A stretch of 64,000 nt of DNA from Cytophagales bacterium (GTDB taxonomy: Bacteria; Bacteroidota; Bacteroidia; Cytophagales; Cyclobacteriaceae), in contig JAFLBR010000011.1 of the NCBI GenBank assembly GCA_017303795.1, positions 94,166 to 158,165 on the forward strand, given 5' to 3'. Shown one piece after another: positions 47,320 through 55,515 of this stretch. A program made the translations under genes and the position numbers. The notes below the pieces were generated by a model that worked only from the letters and a program-made list of their open reading frames with translations, made no database searches and had not been told where the DNA came from. How positions within the stretch are numbered: the stretch's first letter is position 1; each line of letters opens with the position of its first letter.

Positions 47320-49416
47320 TCAGTTCAGAGTTTTCCACTCAGCCTTTTGCAGCACGAGGTATTGATTTTTTTCGGAGTAATAATATAGTGCATCGTAGAT
47401 AATCGGAATGATGCTAAGACCTTCAGCAGAGATTACGCCCGACTTCTGAGTATGTATAACCTTAACTGCTCCATTAGCAAGTATTGCCAATTGATTAAAT
47501 CGCGGCTCAATCAAAATTTTGCCGGAAGCATCGGCCAAACCGGTTAATCCATTTTTATACAATCTGAATTTATTCAAGTCGCTTGCGATAGAGTCATACT
47601 CGAGACTCAGTATAAATTTTCCTTGCTTGTCGATAACTCCGGCTTTTCCGTTGCGGGTAACTACGCACAATCCATTGTAGAATTGTGCTACTTTATCGTA
47701 GTTGGGGTTAATTACAATCTGATCTTGCGCATTAATAAAACCCCACCGGCCAATCAGTTTTATAGCAGCCATGCCTTCGCTGAAATTACCAATGCCATCG
47801 TAACGATTGGCAATACGCAATCTTCCGCGCACATCAATAAACCCATATTTGCCATCGCGTTTGATGCCGCGAAGACCTTCATGTTCTTCAAAAACAGCTT
47901 CTACTTTATCAACTTGTGGCGGTTCCTTGCGATTAATGAGACGGCCGTGGTAGTCTAATTTTTTAATGGTGCCATCCGGTAAAAACTCCGTAAAGCAATC
48001 TGCACCAAAATCAATTTTGTTATCCGTAAAGTAGATTACGTTTCCGTCAAATGATTTTAAAAACAGGTTGGCGGGTTCTAGTTGCACGTAAATCGAATCA
48101 TTAACCAATTTTAATGGATGCGCTTGTGGTGCAACAATCCATTCTTCGCGCGGAGAAACAATACCATACTGGCCTTTAAACTTTACAACCACATATTTAT
48201 TCGAAATTTCAATCAGCGAATCGTACACGCAATGAACGGTTTCTTCGCCTTGTGTTGTAAGCGCGCCCCAATACTGATTGCTTTTTGCAGGAAACAATCC
48301 GTGTTGTGGGGCATCTATTCGCGAATAAGTTTTAAACGAAGTGAATGTTCGGTTAATGTCGGTTAGCGCCCAACCCGAACGCGAAAGCGTACGCACCTGC
48401 GGATAATTCACTACAATTGAATCGTATTGTAAAGGGATGATTGGCTTATTTTCAGAGGTAATAATTCCGGTTTTGTTATTCTTCTGTGCCAGAAATAAAT
48501 TATCCTGAAGGTAAGTCAGGTTTTGATATTGGGCAGGCAGCGTTACGTTCCAGGTTCCATCCATCAAACCAAAATGCCCGGAGAATTGATAAATATTAAT
48601 TCCGGGTGCGGCTGGTAAAATATTTTCGGCTTGAAAATTTTGTTGAGTTTTATTGGAAGCATCTAACACTACCCATTGATGATGTGGTAAAACCGAAATC
48701 CGATCGTCTTCAACTTTTACATTCTGGTAGCGGGCTTCGACCAACACATTGCCTTCGCGATCGAGCAAGCCTTTGTTGGTATTGATGTAGAAAAATGCTT
48801 TACCATTTTGAAACATAGAAATGCTATCGATGGTAAATGGTGTAATGGCGCGGCCATCTTCCGCGTACAAGGCAATTTTTCCGCTGTCGTTTTGTACAGC
48901 ATAACGCAGTGTGCCCAATGGCAAAATGCCTGAATAGTTTGCCGGTATAATCAACTTGTTTTGCAGATCGGCTAATCCATATTGATAACGACCATTACTT
49001 AAATTGACCACAATCGCGCGAAGCCCATGCAGTTGAATATCATCATACACAAATGGAATCTGAACTTCGCCCCGCAGATTAAGGCATCCGGTTTTCCGCT
49101 GCGCGGGATTAATCTTTTTCTTTACCACGACATACTCACCACCGCCATACACCAGGCTTTCGTATTCAGCTTTGGTAATAAATTCTTTTTTGAGATTAAG
49201 TATTCCCCAATGGTTGTTTTGGCGATAGCCGGTTACGTTTCCAATCACTGAAAAACTTCCGTCCGACCAACCCAGGGCTTCGAATGAAGCCGGCAGTACC
49301 ACTTTCCCCTCCTGGTTTTTAAGCCCCACTTTCCCATTCTCTTCAAAAGTTTGAAAAGAATCGGCCCATCCCGTAAGGGAAGTGATTAGCAAACAAACCA
49401 GTAGGGCGATTTTCAT
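47320..49416 (-). CDS. WG (KWG Leptospira) repeat-containing exported protein
   Basis: Signal peptide; repeated K.G.I...G...I...YD units; GKYGFID, GRWGFIN, FSEGMA. Confidence 0.88.
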   Translation of the reverse strand: MKIALLVCLLITSLTGWADSFQTFEENGKVGLKNQEGKVVLPASFEALGWSDGSFSVIGNVTGYRQNNHWGILNLKKEFITKAEYESLVYGGGEYVVVKKKINPAQRKTGCLNLRGEVQIPFVYDDIQLHGLRAIVVNLSNGRYQYGLADLQNKLIIPANYSGILPLGTLRYAVQNDSGKIALYAEDGRAITPFTIDSISMFQNGKAFFYINTNKGLLDREGNVLVEARYQNVKVEDDRISVLPHHQWVVLDASNKTQQNFQAENILPAAPGINIYQFSGHFGLMDGTWNVTLPAQYQNLTYLQDNLFLAQKNNKTGIITSENKPIIPLQYDSIVVNYPQVRTLSRSGWALTDINRTFTSFKTYSRIDAPQHGLFPAKSNQYWGALTTQGEETVHCVYDSLIEISNKYVVVKFKGQYGIVSPREEWIVAPQAHPLKLVNDSIYVQLEPANLFLKSFDGNVIYFTDNKIDFGADCFTEFLPDGTIKKLDYHGRLINRKEPPQVDKVEAVFEEHEGLRGIKRDGKYGFIDVRGRLRIANRYDGIGNFSEGMAAIKLIGRWGFINAQDQIVINPNYDKVAQFYNGLCVVTRNGKAGVIDKQGKFILSLEYDSIASDLNKFRLYKNGLTGLADASGKILIEPRFNQLAILANGAVKVIHTQKSGVISAEGLSIIPIIYDALYYYSEKNQYLVLQKAEWKTLN

Positions 49417-52389: not shown

Positions 52390-54084
52390 ATGATAAAGAC
52401 CTCAGACCTGTTCTCGTACAAAATTGATAAGAAGTATAGCAAACCCGCGGCTTATTTTTCGATGGAGTTTGGTATTGATCAGGCTTTAAAAATTTACAGT
52501 GGCGGCCTTGGTTTTCTGGCGGGTTCGCACATGCGCAGTGCTTACGAGCTTAAACAAAATCTGATTGGCATCGGAATTTTGTGGAAGTATGGCTATTACG
52601 ATCAGGAAAGAAATCAGGACGGAACTTTAAAAGCAGGGTATGTAGAAAAGAACTATTCTTTTCTTACCGATACAGGCATTGTGTTTCCGATTACCATTCA
52701 CAACCACGAAGTGCATGTAAAAGCCTGGTTGCTGAAGCCTGAGGTATTTCATACAGCCCCCATGTTTTTGTTAAGTACCGATTTGCCTGAGAACGACCAC
52801 CTGGCACAAACCATCAGCTATCGGTTGTACGATAGCCACGAGTCGGCCCGCATTGCGCAGTCCATATTATTAGGTAGTGGCGGTGCAAAGCTGTTGGATA
52901 TTTTAGAACGCGAAACAGAGGTGTATCACATGAATGAAGGCCATGCGCTACCGCTGTGCTTTTATTTATTGAATAAATACAATAACGATCTGGAAGAAGT
53001 GCGCAAGCGGGTAGTGTTTACTACGCACACGCCTGAAAAAGCTGGCAATGAAGAACACGGAATTTCATATTTAGATGTGATGAGTTTTTTCCACGGTGTG
53101 CCGAAAGAAACGGTACTGGAATTAGCCGCACCCGATACCAATAATTTAAGTTATACACTGGCTGCGTTGCGCATGTCGCGCATCTCAAATGGAGTTTCGT
53201 CTTTGCACGGGGCGGTGTCGCGTAAAATGTGGACAGGCTTTGATGGCATTTGCGAGATTACTTCCATTACCAATGCGCAGAACAAAACCTTTTGGATGGA
53301 TGCTGCATTGGAAGAACATCATAAGCAAGGAAACGATAAAGGATTAACGCTTCGTAAAAAAGAAATGAAGCGCGAACTCTTTCGCGTGGTGGCAAACCAA
53401 ACCGGTAAAATTTTTGACGAGAACGTAATTACGATTGTATGGGCCAGACGTTTTGCGGCTTATAAACGCGCTAACTTATTGCTTCGCGACTTCGAGCGTT
53501 TTCTTAAGTTGGTAAACAATGCTGAATTTCCAGTGCAAGTGATCTGGGCTGGTAAACCTTACCCGGAAGATTTTGGTGCGATTGGAATCTTTAATGATAT
53601 CTATTGGAAAACAAAAGACTTACCTAATTGCGCTATTCTTACCGGTTACGAAATGGAGCTTTCCGGTTTGCTGAAGCGCGGTTCTGATTTGTGGCTCAAC
53701 ACGCCAAAAATGTTCCGCGAAGCCTCGGGTACTTCGGGCATGACAGCCGCTATGAATGGAAGTGTAAATCTTTCTATTCCCGATGGTTGGATTCCGGAGT
53801 TTTCGAAGCACGGAAAAAATTGCTTTATTATTTCGCCAGCCGAAGCGGATGACGCTGCGGAGCAGGATCGCATCGAAAATGATAACCTGCTTACGTTATT
53901 AGAAAATGAAATTGTGCCGATGTATTACAAAAAGCCGAAACAATGGGTGGCTGTTGTAAAACAAAGTATGGAAGATGTTGTGCCCGCGTTTGACAGCAAC
54001 CGCATGGCGCGTGAGTACTACGAGAAGTTGTATGCTACAACTGAAACGAAGGCTAAGAAAGCAAAAGAGCTGGAGGTGATTTAA
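52390..54084 (+). CDS. glgP: Alpha-glucan phosphorylase family protein (short form), PLP-Lys replaced by Thr
   Basis: Likely ATG 52390; YFSMEFG, YSGGLGFLAG, HMNEGH, FTTHTP, WARRFAAYKRA, EASGTSGMTAAMNG. Confidence 0.88.
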   Translation: MIKTSDLFSYKIDKKYSKPAAYFSMEFGIDQALKIYSGGLGFLAGSHMRSAYELKQNLIGIGILWKYGYYDQERNQDGTLKAGYVEKNYSFLTDTGIVFPITIHNHEVHVKAWLLKPEVFHTAPMFLLSTDLPENDHLAQTISYRLYDSHESARIAQSILLGSGGAKLLDILERETEVYHMNEGHALPLCFYLLNKYNNDLEEVRKRVVFTTHTPEKAGNEEHGISYLDVMSFFHGVPKETVLELAAPDTNNLSYTLAALRMSRISNGVSSLHGAVSRKMWTGFDGICEITSITNAQNKTFWMDAALEEHHKQGNDKGLTLRKKEMKRELFRVVANQTGKIFDENVITIVWARRFAAYKRANLLLRDFERFLKLVNNAEFPVQVIWAGKPYPEDFGAIGIFNDIYWKTKDLPNCAILTGYEMELSGLLKRGSDLWLNTPKMFREASGTSGMTAAMNGSVNLSIPDGWIPEFSKHGKNCFIISPAEADDAAEQDRIENDNLLTLLENEIVPMYYKKPKQWVAVVKQSMEDVVPAFDSNRMAREYYEKLYATTETKAKKAKELEVI

Positions 54085-54980
54085 TGTCTGGGAGTTACGA
54101 TTGTAAATACTCTTGAAATCGTAAACCCAAACCGAATATCACCTTTAAAAAAGTTACCGGTTGTTTCGGAAATGAAGGAACGCTCAGTCATGCCTGTTGA
54201 ATTAGTTACATTCAATTGAAAAACGTGGCCACCGGTTTCAATATCAAATCCTAACGCAAGCGAGTTAGTGGTGCCTGAAATCTGATGCCCTGGAATCTGG
54301 TAGTAGTATTCAGCATTTAAGCTTACCCGCTTATTAAGTTTCATTCTTCCACCGGCACCTACTGAAAAAACATCGTTTGGATCGTTAATGCCAGTTGCCA
54401 GGTTGTAGTGAATAAGTGTAGGCATAAGTTGAAGCGAAAGACTTTCGCTAAACTTTCTTCCAATTAAGAGCTGCGCAGAATAGTACATTTTGGAGGTCAG
54501 GAAATTTTCGCGATCGGGCGTATCAAATTTTAATGACTTATACATAATACCAGCGGCTGCACTTACAGTTATGGGCATGCCACCACTAACCTGGCTTAGT
54601 AGTTTATACTTGGTAAACCCATCAAATTGTTTTTGATAGGTACTTCTACCCACACCAATCATCCAGCGTTTTGTAAGTCCATAATCAAAGCCCATGCGCA
54701 TGGAGGCCTGATCCAATCCAAACAGTTCATAAGCACCATCGCTTAAAAAACCAAACCGGTGCGAGATTCTGAAATCAAGAACTCCTTTCGCCACATTCTC
54801 AACGGAGTGACCATTGATCAAACGCGTGGTTTTGAAAGTGGCTGTTACGTAATCTGGTTTACTTTGCTTTTCTGTTTCCTTATCAAGCATGTCCATTAAA
54901 TCCTGACCATAGCTTGTGGCATGTAGCGATGAAACAAAAAGCAGAATGCCAATGAGTGATAACTTATTATTTAGGCGCAT
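54081..54980 (-). CDS. DUF5777 family outer-membrane beta-barrel
   Basis: Likely start MRLNN (54980); ATFKTTRLINGHS, FRISHRFG, LFGLD, ETGGHVFQL, FGFTISRVF. Confidence 0.85.
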   Translation of the reverse strand: MRLNNKLSLIGILLFVSSLHATSYGQDLMDMLDKETEKQSKPDYVTATFKTTRLINGHSVENVAKGVLDFRISHRFGFLSDGAYELFGLDQASMRMGFDYGLTKRWMIGVGRSTYQKQFDGFTKYKLLSQVSGGMPITVSAAAGIMYKSLKFDTPDRENFLTSKMYYSAQLLIGRKFSESLSLQLMPTLIHYNLATGINDPNDVFSVGAGGRMKLNKRVSLNAEYYYQIPGHQISGTTNSLALGFDIETGGHVFQLNVTNSTGMTERSFISETTGNFFKGDIRFGFTISRVFTIVTPRH

Positions 54981-55515
54981 AAATACAATTGACATTAATC
55001 TCAACGGTTTTGGAAATTTTTTCAGCAACAAGTGCCGGTATTTCAATTTTGTGATCGGATAGTTTGATCACAAACTTCGAGCTTGCTTCAAGTTTGTCAG
55101 GCGAAACGATGATTGTACCCGTTGCTGTCTGGTATTGTTTTACGCCATGTATCGTGAGATCACCCCCAACTTCAATTTCGTAGGTTCCACTAACTTTAAA
55201 GTTCACCTTGCTTAGGTTTAATATTTTTCCGTTGAAGGTGGCTTTGGGGTATTTTGTTGACTCCAGATAGTTTTCATTAAAATGTTCTTCCATGAGTGCT
55301 TTATCGAAGCGAAAACTTTTAACCAGCACGGCAAAAACCAATTCACCTTTTTCTATATCTAGCAGACTCGTTACCTCATTGTTGGTTGCTTCTATGTTTT
55401 CTATTGGTGTTTTCGAAAAGAAAGAGATCTTTCCATTTCTGGTCATGAACACCGGCTGGGCAAAAGAACTCACGCTAATGGCGTAGAGCAATACACTAAC
55501 TAAAACCTGTTTCAT
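54967..55515 (-). CDS. YceI family (polyisoprenoid-binding) exported protein
   Basis: Signal peptide; ISFFSKTP.E.I.A, F.F.KALMEEHFNENY.ES..YPKATF, G.LTIHG. Confidence 0.88.
   Translation of the reverse strand: MKQVLVSVLLYAISVSSFAQPVFMTRNGKISFFSKTPIENIEATNNEVTSLLDIEKGELVFAVLVKSFRFDKALMEEHFNENYLESTKYPKATFNGKILNLSKVNFKVSGTYEIEVGGDLTIHGVKQYQTATGTIIVSPDKLEASSKFVIKLSDHKIEIPALVAEKISKTVEINVNCIYAPK

What the first reader, a model, noticed from the sequence alone, without database searches (positions are those of the whole stretch)
53719..53757. Glucan phosphorylase lacking the PLP Schiff-base lysine
Seen: DNA gaa gcc tcg ggt act tcg ggc atg ACA gcc gct atg aat encodes EASGTSGM-T-AAMN. Established: the phosphorylase signature is E-A-[SC]-G-x-[GS]-x-M-K-x2-[LM]-N, and that Lys (K680 in muscle phosphorylase) anchors the catalytically essential PLP. 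The other active-site motifs (GGLG, THTP, RR...YKR) are intact and the protein is short (564 aa). Inference: non-covalent PLP use, a PLP-independent GT35 activity, or a pseudo-enzyme. AAA to ACA is a single base change, so a sequencing error or strain mutation must be excluded.
Basis: partly seen in the sequence, partly recalled or inferred. Interest (0 to 1): 0.66.

Follow-up and report, generated by a model that had tools for sequence, protein, structure and literature searches.

The report
Lysine-less short glycogen phosphorylase
This gene encodes a short glycogen-phosphorylase-type enzyme that really lacks the lysine that normally holds the vitamin-B6 cofactor. The loss is the rule for a large bacterial branch described in 2025-2026 papers, so this is one more member and not a new kind.

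Summary
The + strand gene at 52390-54084 (564 aa) reads EASGTSGM-T-AAMN at 53719-53757. Thr452 (ACA, 53743-53745) aligns with the PLP Schiff-base Lys609 of the solved Segatella copri enzyme.

It is neither a sequencing error nor a private mutation. All 121 close homologues, 80 of 80 genome loci and every member of one well-supported clade of about 550-aa proteins carry T, S, G or A at this site. All Thr and Ser codons are in use.

The rest of the catalytic set is kept. The AlphaFold model is confident (pLDDT 95) and matches glycogen phosphorylases. This is the only GT35 gene in a complete genome that also has GlgB and GH57.

The literature already covers the case. Nat Commun 2026 reports Lys-to-Thr/Gly/Ala phosphorylases in Cytophagia, Flavobacteriia, Chitinophagia, Akkermansia and Gastranaerophilales. 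The Lys-to-Thr enzyme of Methanococcus maripaludis was shown to be active and PLP-free.

Most likely this is a working, cofactor-free alpha-glucan phosphorylase.

One point goes beyond those papers. A lysine on the neighbouring helix (Lys429) is invariant in the lysine-less clade and absent elsewhere. It is lost again in a Giovannonibacteria subgroup that regained the motif lysine.

I could not test whether the archaeal enzyme belongs to the same clade.

The parts
52390..54084 (+). Gene for a 564-aa short alpha-glucan (glycogen) phosphorylase of the lysine-less type, stop codon included
   Evidence: ORF and start choice. TIGR02094 at 447 bits against a cut-off of 191.7, and PF00343. AlphaFold2 pLDDT 95.1, Foldseek best match ScGP 9l6i with TMq 0.86.
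53719..53757 (+). Phosphorylase signature EASGTSGM-T-AAMN (the finding)
   Evidence: aligned with EASGTSGEKAEMN of ScGP.
53743..53745 (+). Thr452 codon (ACA) at the place of the PLP Schiff-base lysine (ScGP Lys609; rabbit Lys680 from memory)
   Evidence: T, S, G or A in the whole clade. Codon spectrum.
53674..53676 (+). Lys429 codon (AAG): clade-specific invariant lysine on the preceding helix, reciprocal with the motif lysine
   Evidence: K in 21/21 lysine-less representatives, 80/80 loci and 121/121 close homologues; 0/117 in lysine-bearing relatives. Lost (Q or S) in the six sequences that regained the motif Lys.
53662..53664 (+). Ser425 codon: one helical turn before Lys429; Ser (rarely Asn) in the lysine-less clade, Ala/Gly in lysine-bearing relatives
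53437..53469 (+). VWARRFAAYKR. The phosphate-binding Arg353/Arg354, Tyr358 and Lys359 are kept. The clade-specific Val350-Trp351 replaces the Gly-Phe of lysine-bearing relatives.
   Evidence: (ScGP R507, R508, K513).
53020..53034 (+). TTHTP with the catalytic His213 (ScGP His316)
52501..52512 (+). GGLG glucose-1-phosphate/cofactor-positioning motif

Best explanation
The gene encodes a functional cytoplasmic alpha-1,4-glucan (glycogen/maltodextrin) phosphorylase. It belongs to the roughly 550-aa lysine-less branch of the TIGR02094 ('GP1') phosphorylases, and it is the only phosphorylase of this Cyclobacteriaceae-like genome. It most likely works without pyridoxal phosphate. The glucan site, the substrate-phosphate site and the anion site that normally holds the PLP 5'-phosphate are all intact. 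The cofactor lysine is replaced by Thr452, and the former pyridoxal pocket is re-lined by clade-specific residues (Ser425, Lys429, Val350-Trp351, Pro390).

Shown here: the substitution, its fixation in a monophyletic clade, retention of the catalytic set, the phosphorylase fold, and the reciprocal Lys429 / motif-Lys pattern.

Taken from papers: a Lys-to-Thr phosphorylase (M. maripaludis) is active and PLP-free, and its authors propose a second orthophosphate in the PLP-phosphate subsite as the acid/base.

Inferred: this protein works the same way, with Lys429, together with Ser425 and Thr452, filling or charging the vacated pocket.
For: The family and fold are established. TIGR02094 scores 447 bits. 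The AlphaFold2 model has pLDDT 95.1 and pTM 0.93. Its best Foldseek matches are ScGP (TMq 0.86) followed by E. coli, rabbit and plant phosphorylases.

Thr452 aligns with ScGP Lys609. The equivalents of ScGP H316, R507, R508 and K513 are conserved.

The substitution is fixed. Close homologues read 118 T and 3 A out of 121. Genome loci read 60 T, 18 S and 2 A out of 80. Four Thr codons, six Ser codons and two Ala codons are in use.

The lysine-less sequences form one clade, with 100 support in FastTree and in IQ-TREE SH-aLRT when the motif columns are masked.

Catalytic and phosphate-subsite residues are invariant or nearly so in that clade.

This is the only GT35 gene in a 100%-complete genome that has GlgB, GH57 and GH13 genes. 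In the sampled class, genomes carry either the short type or a long type, never both. One relative lies beside a GT5/GT4 glycogen-synthase-like gene and a fragment matching an isoamylase C-terminal domain (PF21156).

Literature: MmGP (Lys to Thr) is active and PLP-free by absorbance, fluorescence, cyanohydrin assay and mass spectrometry. Lys-to-Thr/Gly/Ala enzymes are reported in Cytophagia, Flavobacteriia, Chitinophagia, Akkermansia and Gastranaerophilales, in a roughly 550-aa clade that also holds archaeal sequences.

Lys429 is reciprocal with the motif lysine in two separate events.
Against: No member of the bacterial lysine-less clade has been assayed, as far as the searchable library shows.

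I could not obtain any Methanococcales phosphorylase sequence. None of the lysine-less representatives that carried a source name was archaeal. The archaeal loss may therefore be independent, and its biochemistry may not transfer.

The aromatic residues that stack on the pyridoxal ring in classical enzymes (Trp302 and Tyr420; the mapping to rabbit W491 and Y648 is from memory) are still conserved. That would also fit retained PLP.

Lys429 could in principle form the Schiff base instead.

Confidence: 0.62

Rival explanations
1. The enzyme still uses PLP. The cofactor would be bound either non-covalently in a largely preserved pocket, or through a relocated Schiff-base lysine (Lys429) that reaches in from the neighbouring helix.
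For: Lys429 is invariant exactly where the motif lysine is missing, and it disappears where the motif lysine returns. Trp302, Tyr420 and the PLP-phosphate subsite (Arg353, Lys359, Thr448, Ser449) are conserved. The relation of this clade to the PLP-free archaeal enzyme was not tested here.
Against: Two clade members have Arg at position 429 (P0458, P0470). Arg keeps the charge but cannot form a Schiff base. The clade-specific changes include several small-to-large replacements next to the phosphate-binding strand and helix (G to V, F to W, A to P, A to S, V to K), as expected if the pocket is being filled. MmGP, with the same Lys-to-Thr change, holds no PLP, and its authors argue against non-covalent binding.
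Confidence: 0.2
2. The protein has shifted to another reaction on the same fold. One possibility is net alpha-glucan synthesis from glucose-1-phosphate. Another is use of an NDP-glucose whose diphosphate occupies the substrate-phosphate and vacated PLP-phosphate sites.
For: The genome has no GlgC (best 29 bits against a cut-off of 425). It has only a half-size GlgA-like frame (N-domain only), yet a full GlgB, so the synthetic route is unclear. ADP-glucose and UDP-glucose bind MmGP tightly and compete with phosphate.
Against: All residues that bind orthophosphate and the glucan in phosphorylases are kept. MmGP performs ordinary phosphorolysis with ordinary kinetics. Nucleotide-sugar inhibition is also known for classical phosphorylases.
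Confidence: 0.1
3. The protein is a catalytically dead pseudo-enzyme, for example a glucan-binding or regulatory protein.
For: It lacks the residue regarded as essential in all classical phosphorylases. A few distant clade members also have degraded signatures (for example EACEDCWIS and EATETSGIS).
Against: Catalytic residues are invariant over a deep, multi-phylum clade. It is the sole GT35 gene in the genome. It is mutually exclusive with lysine-bearing types across genomes. The Lys-to-Thr archaeal enzyme is active.
Confidence: 0.04
4. The Thr is a sequencing error or a private AAA-to-ACA mutation of this strain.
For: ACA is one base away from AAA.
Against: All 121 close homologues, 80 of 80 genome loci and the whole clade lack the lysine, and all Thr and Ser codons are in use.
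Confidence: 0.01

Closest known systems
Lysine-less sub-clade of 'GP1 clade VIII' (about 550-aa glycogen phosphorylases), described in Nat Commun 2026;17:5756 (PMC13324651)
   Same: Same length class. Same replacement of the Schiff-base Lys by Thr/Gly/Ala (Ser as well in my sample). Same taxa: Cytophagia, Chitinophagia, Flavobacteriia, Akkermansia, Gastranaerophilales. The window's protein falls inside this clade in my own trees.
   Different: Nothing essential; this is one more member. The paper reports the loss only at motif level. It does not mention the compensating Lys429/Ser425, the Campylobacterota and CPR members, or the Giovannonibacteria re-gain seen here.
Methanococcus maripaludis glycogen phosphorylase MmGP (UniProt Q6LXX5); bioRxiv 10.1101/2024.09.29.615707, FEBS J 2025 doi 10.1111/febs.70182
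   Same: Short phosphorylase with Thr in place of the PLP lysine and the other active-site residues conserved. Shown to be active on glycogen and free of PLP.
   Different: It is archaeal. I could not test whether it shares the clade, or the Lys429 and Ser425 residues, with this protein. Its authors name Phe26 as the pocket filler, which I could not map. No biochemistry exists for the bacterial protein.
Segatella copri glycogen phosphorylase ScGP (PDB 9L6I), 'clade 2' / TIGR02094 type
   Same: Closest solved structure (phmmer E 1e-78, Foldseek TMq 0.86, about 30% identity). Same catalytic His, Arg-Arg and Lys, and the same EASGTSG motif.
   Different: ScGP is 852 aa with extra N- and C-terminal domains. 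It is pentameric and carries PLP on Lys609. At the clade-specific positions ScGP has Ala/Ile/Gly-Phe/Ala where this protein has Ser425/Lys429/Val-Trp/Pro.
Classical GT35 phosphorylases (rabbit muscle GP, E. coli GlgP/MalP; TIGR02093, 'GP2')
   Same: Same GT-B fold and same reaction chemistry expected (Foldseek TMq 0.75-0.79).
   Different: Only 15-18% identity. They are about 800 aa with regulatory N-terminal parts, carry PLP on Lys680 (rabbit, from memory) or Lys662 (E. coli GP), and are dimers or tetramers.

Membership tests
GT35 / TIGR02094 alpha-glucan family phosphorylase | Profile match above the curated cut-off | tested here: met
   TIGR02094 at 447.1 bits against a cut-off of 191.7; PF00343 at 47.1 bits against 27.
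GT35 / TIGR02094 alpha-glucan family phosphorylase | Two-Rossmann-domain (GT-B) phosphorylase fold | tested here: met
   AlphaFold2 pLDDT 95.1, pTM 0.93. The top 50 Foldseek matches in the PDB are all glycogen, starch or maltodextrin phosphorylases.
GT35 / TIGR02094 alpha-glucan family phosphorylase | Catalytic His, phosphate-binding Arg/Lys pair and Lys, GGLG, Glu-Ala-Ser-Gly-Thr | tested here: met
   His213, Arg353, Arg354, Lys359, GGLG 38-41 and Glu444-Thr448 align with ScGP H316, R507, R508 and K513.
GT35 / TIGR02094 alpha-glucan family phosphorylase | Schiff-base lysine for PLP in the signature (E-A-[SC]-G-x-[GS]-x-M-K) | tested here: not met
   Thr452 aligns with ScGP Lys609. By homology the protein is a member of the family, but not of its PLP-lysine-bearing majority.
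Lysine-less sub-clade of GP1 clade VIII (PMC13324651) | About 550 aa with the Lys replaced by Thr/Gly/Ala | tested here: met
   564 aa; Thr452.
Lysine-less sub-clade of GP1 clade VIII (PMC13324651) | Groups phylogenetically with the Bacteroidota, Akkermansia and Gastranaerophilales lysine-less sequences, apart from lysine-bearing short forms | tested here: met
   The split has 100 support in two trees with the motif masked. Named relatives are listed.
PLP-independent glycogen phosphorylase (MmGP type) | Lys-to-Thr at the PLP site with the other active-site residues kept | tested here: met
   compare the paper's description.
PLP-independent glycogen phosphorylase (MmGP type) | Purified protein contains no PLP and still phosphorolyses glycogen | not testable with these tools
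   Needs expression, spectroscopy, mass spectrometry and enzyme assay.
PLP-independent glycogen phosphorylase (MmGP type) | Common descent of the lysine loss with MmGP (same clade) | not tested
   No Methanococcales phosphorylase sequence could be fetched. PMC13324651 says only that 'Archaea' sit in the same sub-clade.

The most novel reading that the evidence does not exclude
Ser425, Lys429 and Thr452 may form a switchable substitute for the Lys-PLP cofactor. In this reading the amino group of Lys429, coming from the neighbouring helix, occupies the vacated cofactor pocket. It supplies what PLP supplied, either directly or by holding a second orthophosphate in the intact PLP-phosphate subsite. 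The exchange has run both ways in evolution. The motif Lys was lost, with gain of Lys429, at the base of the clade. The motif Lys was regained, with loss of Lys429, in Giovannonibacteria. If so, the cofactor requirement of a textbook enzyme would depend on few residues, these three among them (other clade-specific changes exist).
Probability: 0.3. Interest if true: 0.6.

Novelty: new member of a known kind. Interest (0 to 1): 0.33.

Why it matters
Glycogen phosphorylase is the textbook case of an enzyme that uses PLP for its phosphate group. A natural branch that dispenses with the cofactor changes that picture, but the discovery has already been published (2024-2026).

This window adds a well-behaved bacterial member from a complete genome in which it is the only phosphorylase. 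That makes it a reasonable candidate for the first biochemical test of the bacterial clade.

The reciprocal pattern between Lys429 and the motif lysine also gives a concrete, cheap mutational hypothesis for how the cofactor was replaced.

Tried and rejected
1. Sequencing error or private mutation: rejected by the comparative data.

2. Fetching a Methanococcales phosphorylase to test common descent with MmGP. A taxon name is not accepted by the genome search. That record cannot be used as a genome handle or centre, and no W handle exists. None of the 20 looked-up lysine-less cluster representatives that bore a source name was archaeal.

3. Measuring the distance from Lys429 to Thr452 and to the phosphate subsite: the model's coordinates are not exposed to the Python box.

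4. Gene neighbourhood as a clue to function. In the window the gene is an orphan between unrelated genes. Only 5 of 80 related loci have GlgB within 6 kb, and one relative lies beside a GT5/GT4 glycogen-synthase-like gene. This support is weak.

5. Sigma-70 promoter and terminator scans around the gene gave no more hits than shuffled sequence.

6. No supplementary files of the two key papers are held, and the FEBS J version is not held.
Full report
Numbering. Residues are numbered from the Met at 52390, so the protein is 564 aa. My scripts used P0001, which has one extra leading residue, so their numbers are one higher (for example T453 there is Thr452 here).

Observation. Bases 53719-53757 read gaa gcc tcg ggt act tcg ggc atg aca gcc gct atg aat. 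They translate in frame as EASGTSGMTAAMN inside a + strand ORF. Homologue N-termini place the start at the ATG at 52390, and the stop is at 54082-54084. GGLG, TTHTP and ARRFAAYKR are present. In the phmmer alignment to the solved Segatella copri phosphorylase (9l6i), the Thr aligns with Lys609. The structure paper identifies Lys609 as the PLP-bearing residue. The equivalents of its H316, R507, R508 and K513 are conserved here as His213, Arg353, Arg354 and Lys359.

Identity of the protein. It scores 447 bits on NCBIfam TIGR02094 (alpha-glucan family phosphorylase, cut-off 191.7), and it passes Pfam PF00343. An AlphaFold2 model built on a 63-sequence alignment is confident (pLDDT 95.1, pTM 0.93). 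Its best PDB matches are ScGP (TMq 0.86), followed by E. coli, Dorea, rabbit, human and plant phosphorylases. By homology and fold it is a true GT35 protein.

Not an error. All 121 closest homologues in the 5.8-billion-protein collection (72-97% identity, several named Cyclobacteriaceae) read Thr (118) or Ala (3) at this site. Eighty genome loci from named species read Thr (60), Ser (18) or Ala (2). They use all four Thr codons, all six Ser codons and two Ala codons. The state is therefore old and maintained, and it is not a recent AAA-to-ACA slip.

A clade, not a case. Among the best 150 representatives at 50% identity, 118 of 143 usable sequences have Lys at this site. The 24 aligned ones without Lys (Ser 14, Thr 8, Gly 2) are all 529-574 aa long. 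The motif columns were masked before building trees. The lysine-less sequences then form one side of a branch with 100 support in FastTree (142 rows) and in IQ-TREE SH-aLRT (72 rows).

Named members come from several groups:
- Bacteroidota: Cytophagales, Chitinophagales, Flavobacteriales, Sphingobacteriales.
- Campylobacterota: Sulfuricurvum, Sulfurimonas.
- Akkermansia and other Verrucomicrobiota.
- Gastranaerophilales and Vampirovibrio.
- CPR bacteria: Sungbacteria, Paceibacterota.
More than 600 stretches matched in species genomes.

What is kept and what changed. The following are invariant or nearly so in the lysine-less clade: Glu26, GGLG, His180, Asn182-Glu183, TTHTP, Asn267, Thr294-Asn295, Trp302, Arg353, Arg354, Tyr358, Lys359, Arg360, Lys389, Tyr420, Glu444, Thr448, Ser449, Asp465-Gly466 and Glu470. 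From my memory of the rabbit sequence, these include the counterparts of H377, N484, W491, K568/R569, Y573, K574, Y648, E672 and T676. That covers the glucan site, the substrate-phosphate site and the subsite that binds the PLP 5'-phosphate.

The clade-specific switches at positions nearly invariant in lysine-bearing relatives are:
- Gly-Phe to Val350-Trp351, directly before the Arg-Arg.
- Ala to Pro390.
- Ala/Gly to Ser425.
- Val/Thr/Ile to Lys429.
- Asp/Asn to Gly419.
- Trp to Phe479.
- Trp to Met/Ile468.
- Asp to Ser/Gly46.
- Glu to Ser158.
- His to Asp/Asn298.

A compensating lysine. Lys429 (AAG, 53674-53676) is Lys in 21 of 21 lysine-less representatives, 80 of 80 loci and 121 of 121 close homologues. 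It is Lys in 0 of 117 lysine-bearing relatives. The only lysine-bearing sequence inside the clade (P0270) led, on searching, to a group of six cluster representatives. Those that carry a source name are Candidatus Giovannonibacteria. They read EASGTSGMK[AG]--NGA, have Gln or Ser at position 429 and Met at 425, and keep the clade hallmarks Trp351 and Pro390.

In the IQ-TREE tree this group (support 99) is nested deep inside the lysine-less clade (supports 93 to 100 on the path). It is therefore a secondary re-gain of the motif lysine coupled with loss of Lys429. The coupling has now been seen in two events. This is suggestive but statistically thin. Two lysine-less sequences have Arg at 429, which argues for a charge role and against a Schiff base.

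In the model, residues 422-431 form the helix that follows Tyr420. Residues 449-455 form the next helix, which carries Thr452. Positions 425 and 429 lie on one face of the first helix. From memory, rabbit Ala653 on that face is a PLP neighbour and Ile657 is one turn below it. I infer that the Lys429 side chain reaches into the space left by the missing Lys-PLP. I re-derived it independently and added the reversal.

Genome context. In the window the gene stands alone, between XdhC/MobA-like genes and a DUF5777 barrel, YceI and cytochrome c genes on the other strand. It is the only TIGR02094 or PF00343 gene in a 100%-complete genome. That genome has a full GlgB with GH57 and GH13 genes on another contig. 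It has no GlgC and only a half-size GlgA-like frame.

In a sample of 151 genomes of the phylum, 12 genomes of the window's class (the window's own among them) carry the short two-piece-matching type and 5 carry a long type. None carries both. This fits one type standing in for the other. Few relatives sit next to glycogen genes: 5 of 80 have GlgB within 6 kb, and one lies beside a GT5/GT4 glycogen-synthase-like gene and a fragment matching an isoamylase C-terminal domain (PF21156).

Literature. Gonzalez-Ordenes et al. (bioRxiv 10.1101/2024.09.29.615707; cited as FEBS J 2025) found Thr or Ser in place of the lysine in Methanococcales. They purified the M. maripaludis enzyme, showed glycogen phosphorolysis with ordinary kinetics, and found no PLP by absorbance, fluorescence, cyanohydrin assay and mass spectrometry. 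They propose a second orthophosphate in the PLP-phosphate subsite as the acid/base, and argue against non-covalent PLP.

The 2026 Nat Commun paper on E. coli GP/HPr (PMC13324651) describes a roughly 550-aa clade ('GP1 clade VIII'). One of its sub-clades (Bacteroidota, with Melainabacteria, Archaea and Verrucomicrobiota) has the lysine replaced by Thr, Gly or Ala. The paper names Flavobacteria, Chitinophagia, Cytophagia, Akkermansia and Gastranaerophilales, and cites MmGP as proof that the lysine is dispensable. The phenomenon, and its occurrence in this very class of bacteria, is therefore published. I found no biochemical study of a bacterial member.

Explanation and rivals.
- Most likely (about 0.6), this is a working, cofactor-free glucan phosphorylase, with the Ser425/Lys429/Thr452 set re-lining the former cofactor pocket.
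- PLP may still be used, bound non-covalently or on Lys429 (about 0.2). This is favoured by the conserved Trp302/Tyr420 and by the untested link to MmGP. It is disfavoured by the Arg429 variants, the bulkier pocket residues and the MmGP data.
- A shifted reaction, such as synthesis from glucose-1-phosphate or an NDP-glucose donor, is possible (about 0.1), given the missing GlgC and GlgA.
- A pseudo-enzyme (about 0.04) and a sequencing error (about 0.01) are unlikely.

Limits.
- I could not fetch any Methanococcales phosphorylase. Common descent of the loss with MmGP, and the presence of the Lys429 equivalent in MmGP, remain untested.
- Model coordinates and raw reads were unavailable.
- Rabbit-enzyme residue equivalences are from memory.

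Verdict. The protein is a further member of a recently described lysine-less phosphorylase branch. The Lys429 / motif-Lys reciprocity and the Giovannonibacteria re-gain are the only points that go beyond the published motif-level description.

Noticed in passing
P0270, P0408-P0412 (relatives; not in the window): A subgroup nested inside the lysine-less clade has regained a Lys in the signature (EASGTSGMK[AG]--NGA, with a 2-residue deletion) and lost the clade's invariant Lys429 (now Gln or Ser). It keeps Trp351 and Pro390. Members that carry a source name are Candidatus Giovannonibacteria. This may be a return to PLP use.
   Followed up: partly
own genome: G000:C24:58897-59565 (L103), G000:C21:38000-49000 (L090-L095): The complete genome has no ADP-glucose pyrophosphorylase (GlgC best 29 bits against a cut-off of 425). 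It has only a half-size GlgA-like frame (PF08323 N-domain, 320-aa frame), but a full GlgB next to GH57 and GH13 genes. How it makes alpha-glucan is unclear.
   Followed up: partly
The genome search sample of the phylum: In the window's class, 12 genomes (the window's own among them) carry the short lysine-less-type gene and 5 carry a long (about 860-1400 aa frame) full-match TIGR02094 gene. None carries both and at least 20 carry neither. Outside the class, the long types (about 700-900 aa frames) dominate.
   Followed up: no
P0458, P0470 (relatives): Two lysine-less sequences carry Arg instead of Lys at the Lys429 column. Several distant CPR members have degraded signatures (for example EACEDCWIS and EATETSGIS), which may be decaying copies.
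   Followed up: no
window 54081-54084: The phosphorylase stop codon overlaps by 4 nt the 3' end of the convergent DUF5777 outer-membrane barrel gene (54081-55046, - strand). There is no room for a terminator between them.
   Followed up: no
L018, L026, L038, L083 (Sulfuricurvum, Sulfurimonas and other Campylobacterota) and L024, L030, L063 (MAGs labelled Sphingomonadales or Bosea): Lysine-less phosphorylases 54-57% identical to the window's protein occur in Campylobacterota and in MAGs labelled as Alphaproteobacteria. This points to horizontal transfer, or to mis-binned contigs for the latter.
   Followed up: no
window 47320-49416 (-): A 698-aa protein made largely of WG beta-repeats (PF14903, 174 bits) lies upstream of the XdhC/MobA pair. 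It is unrelated to the finding.
   Followed up: no
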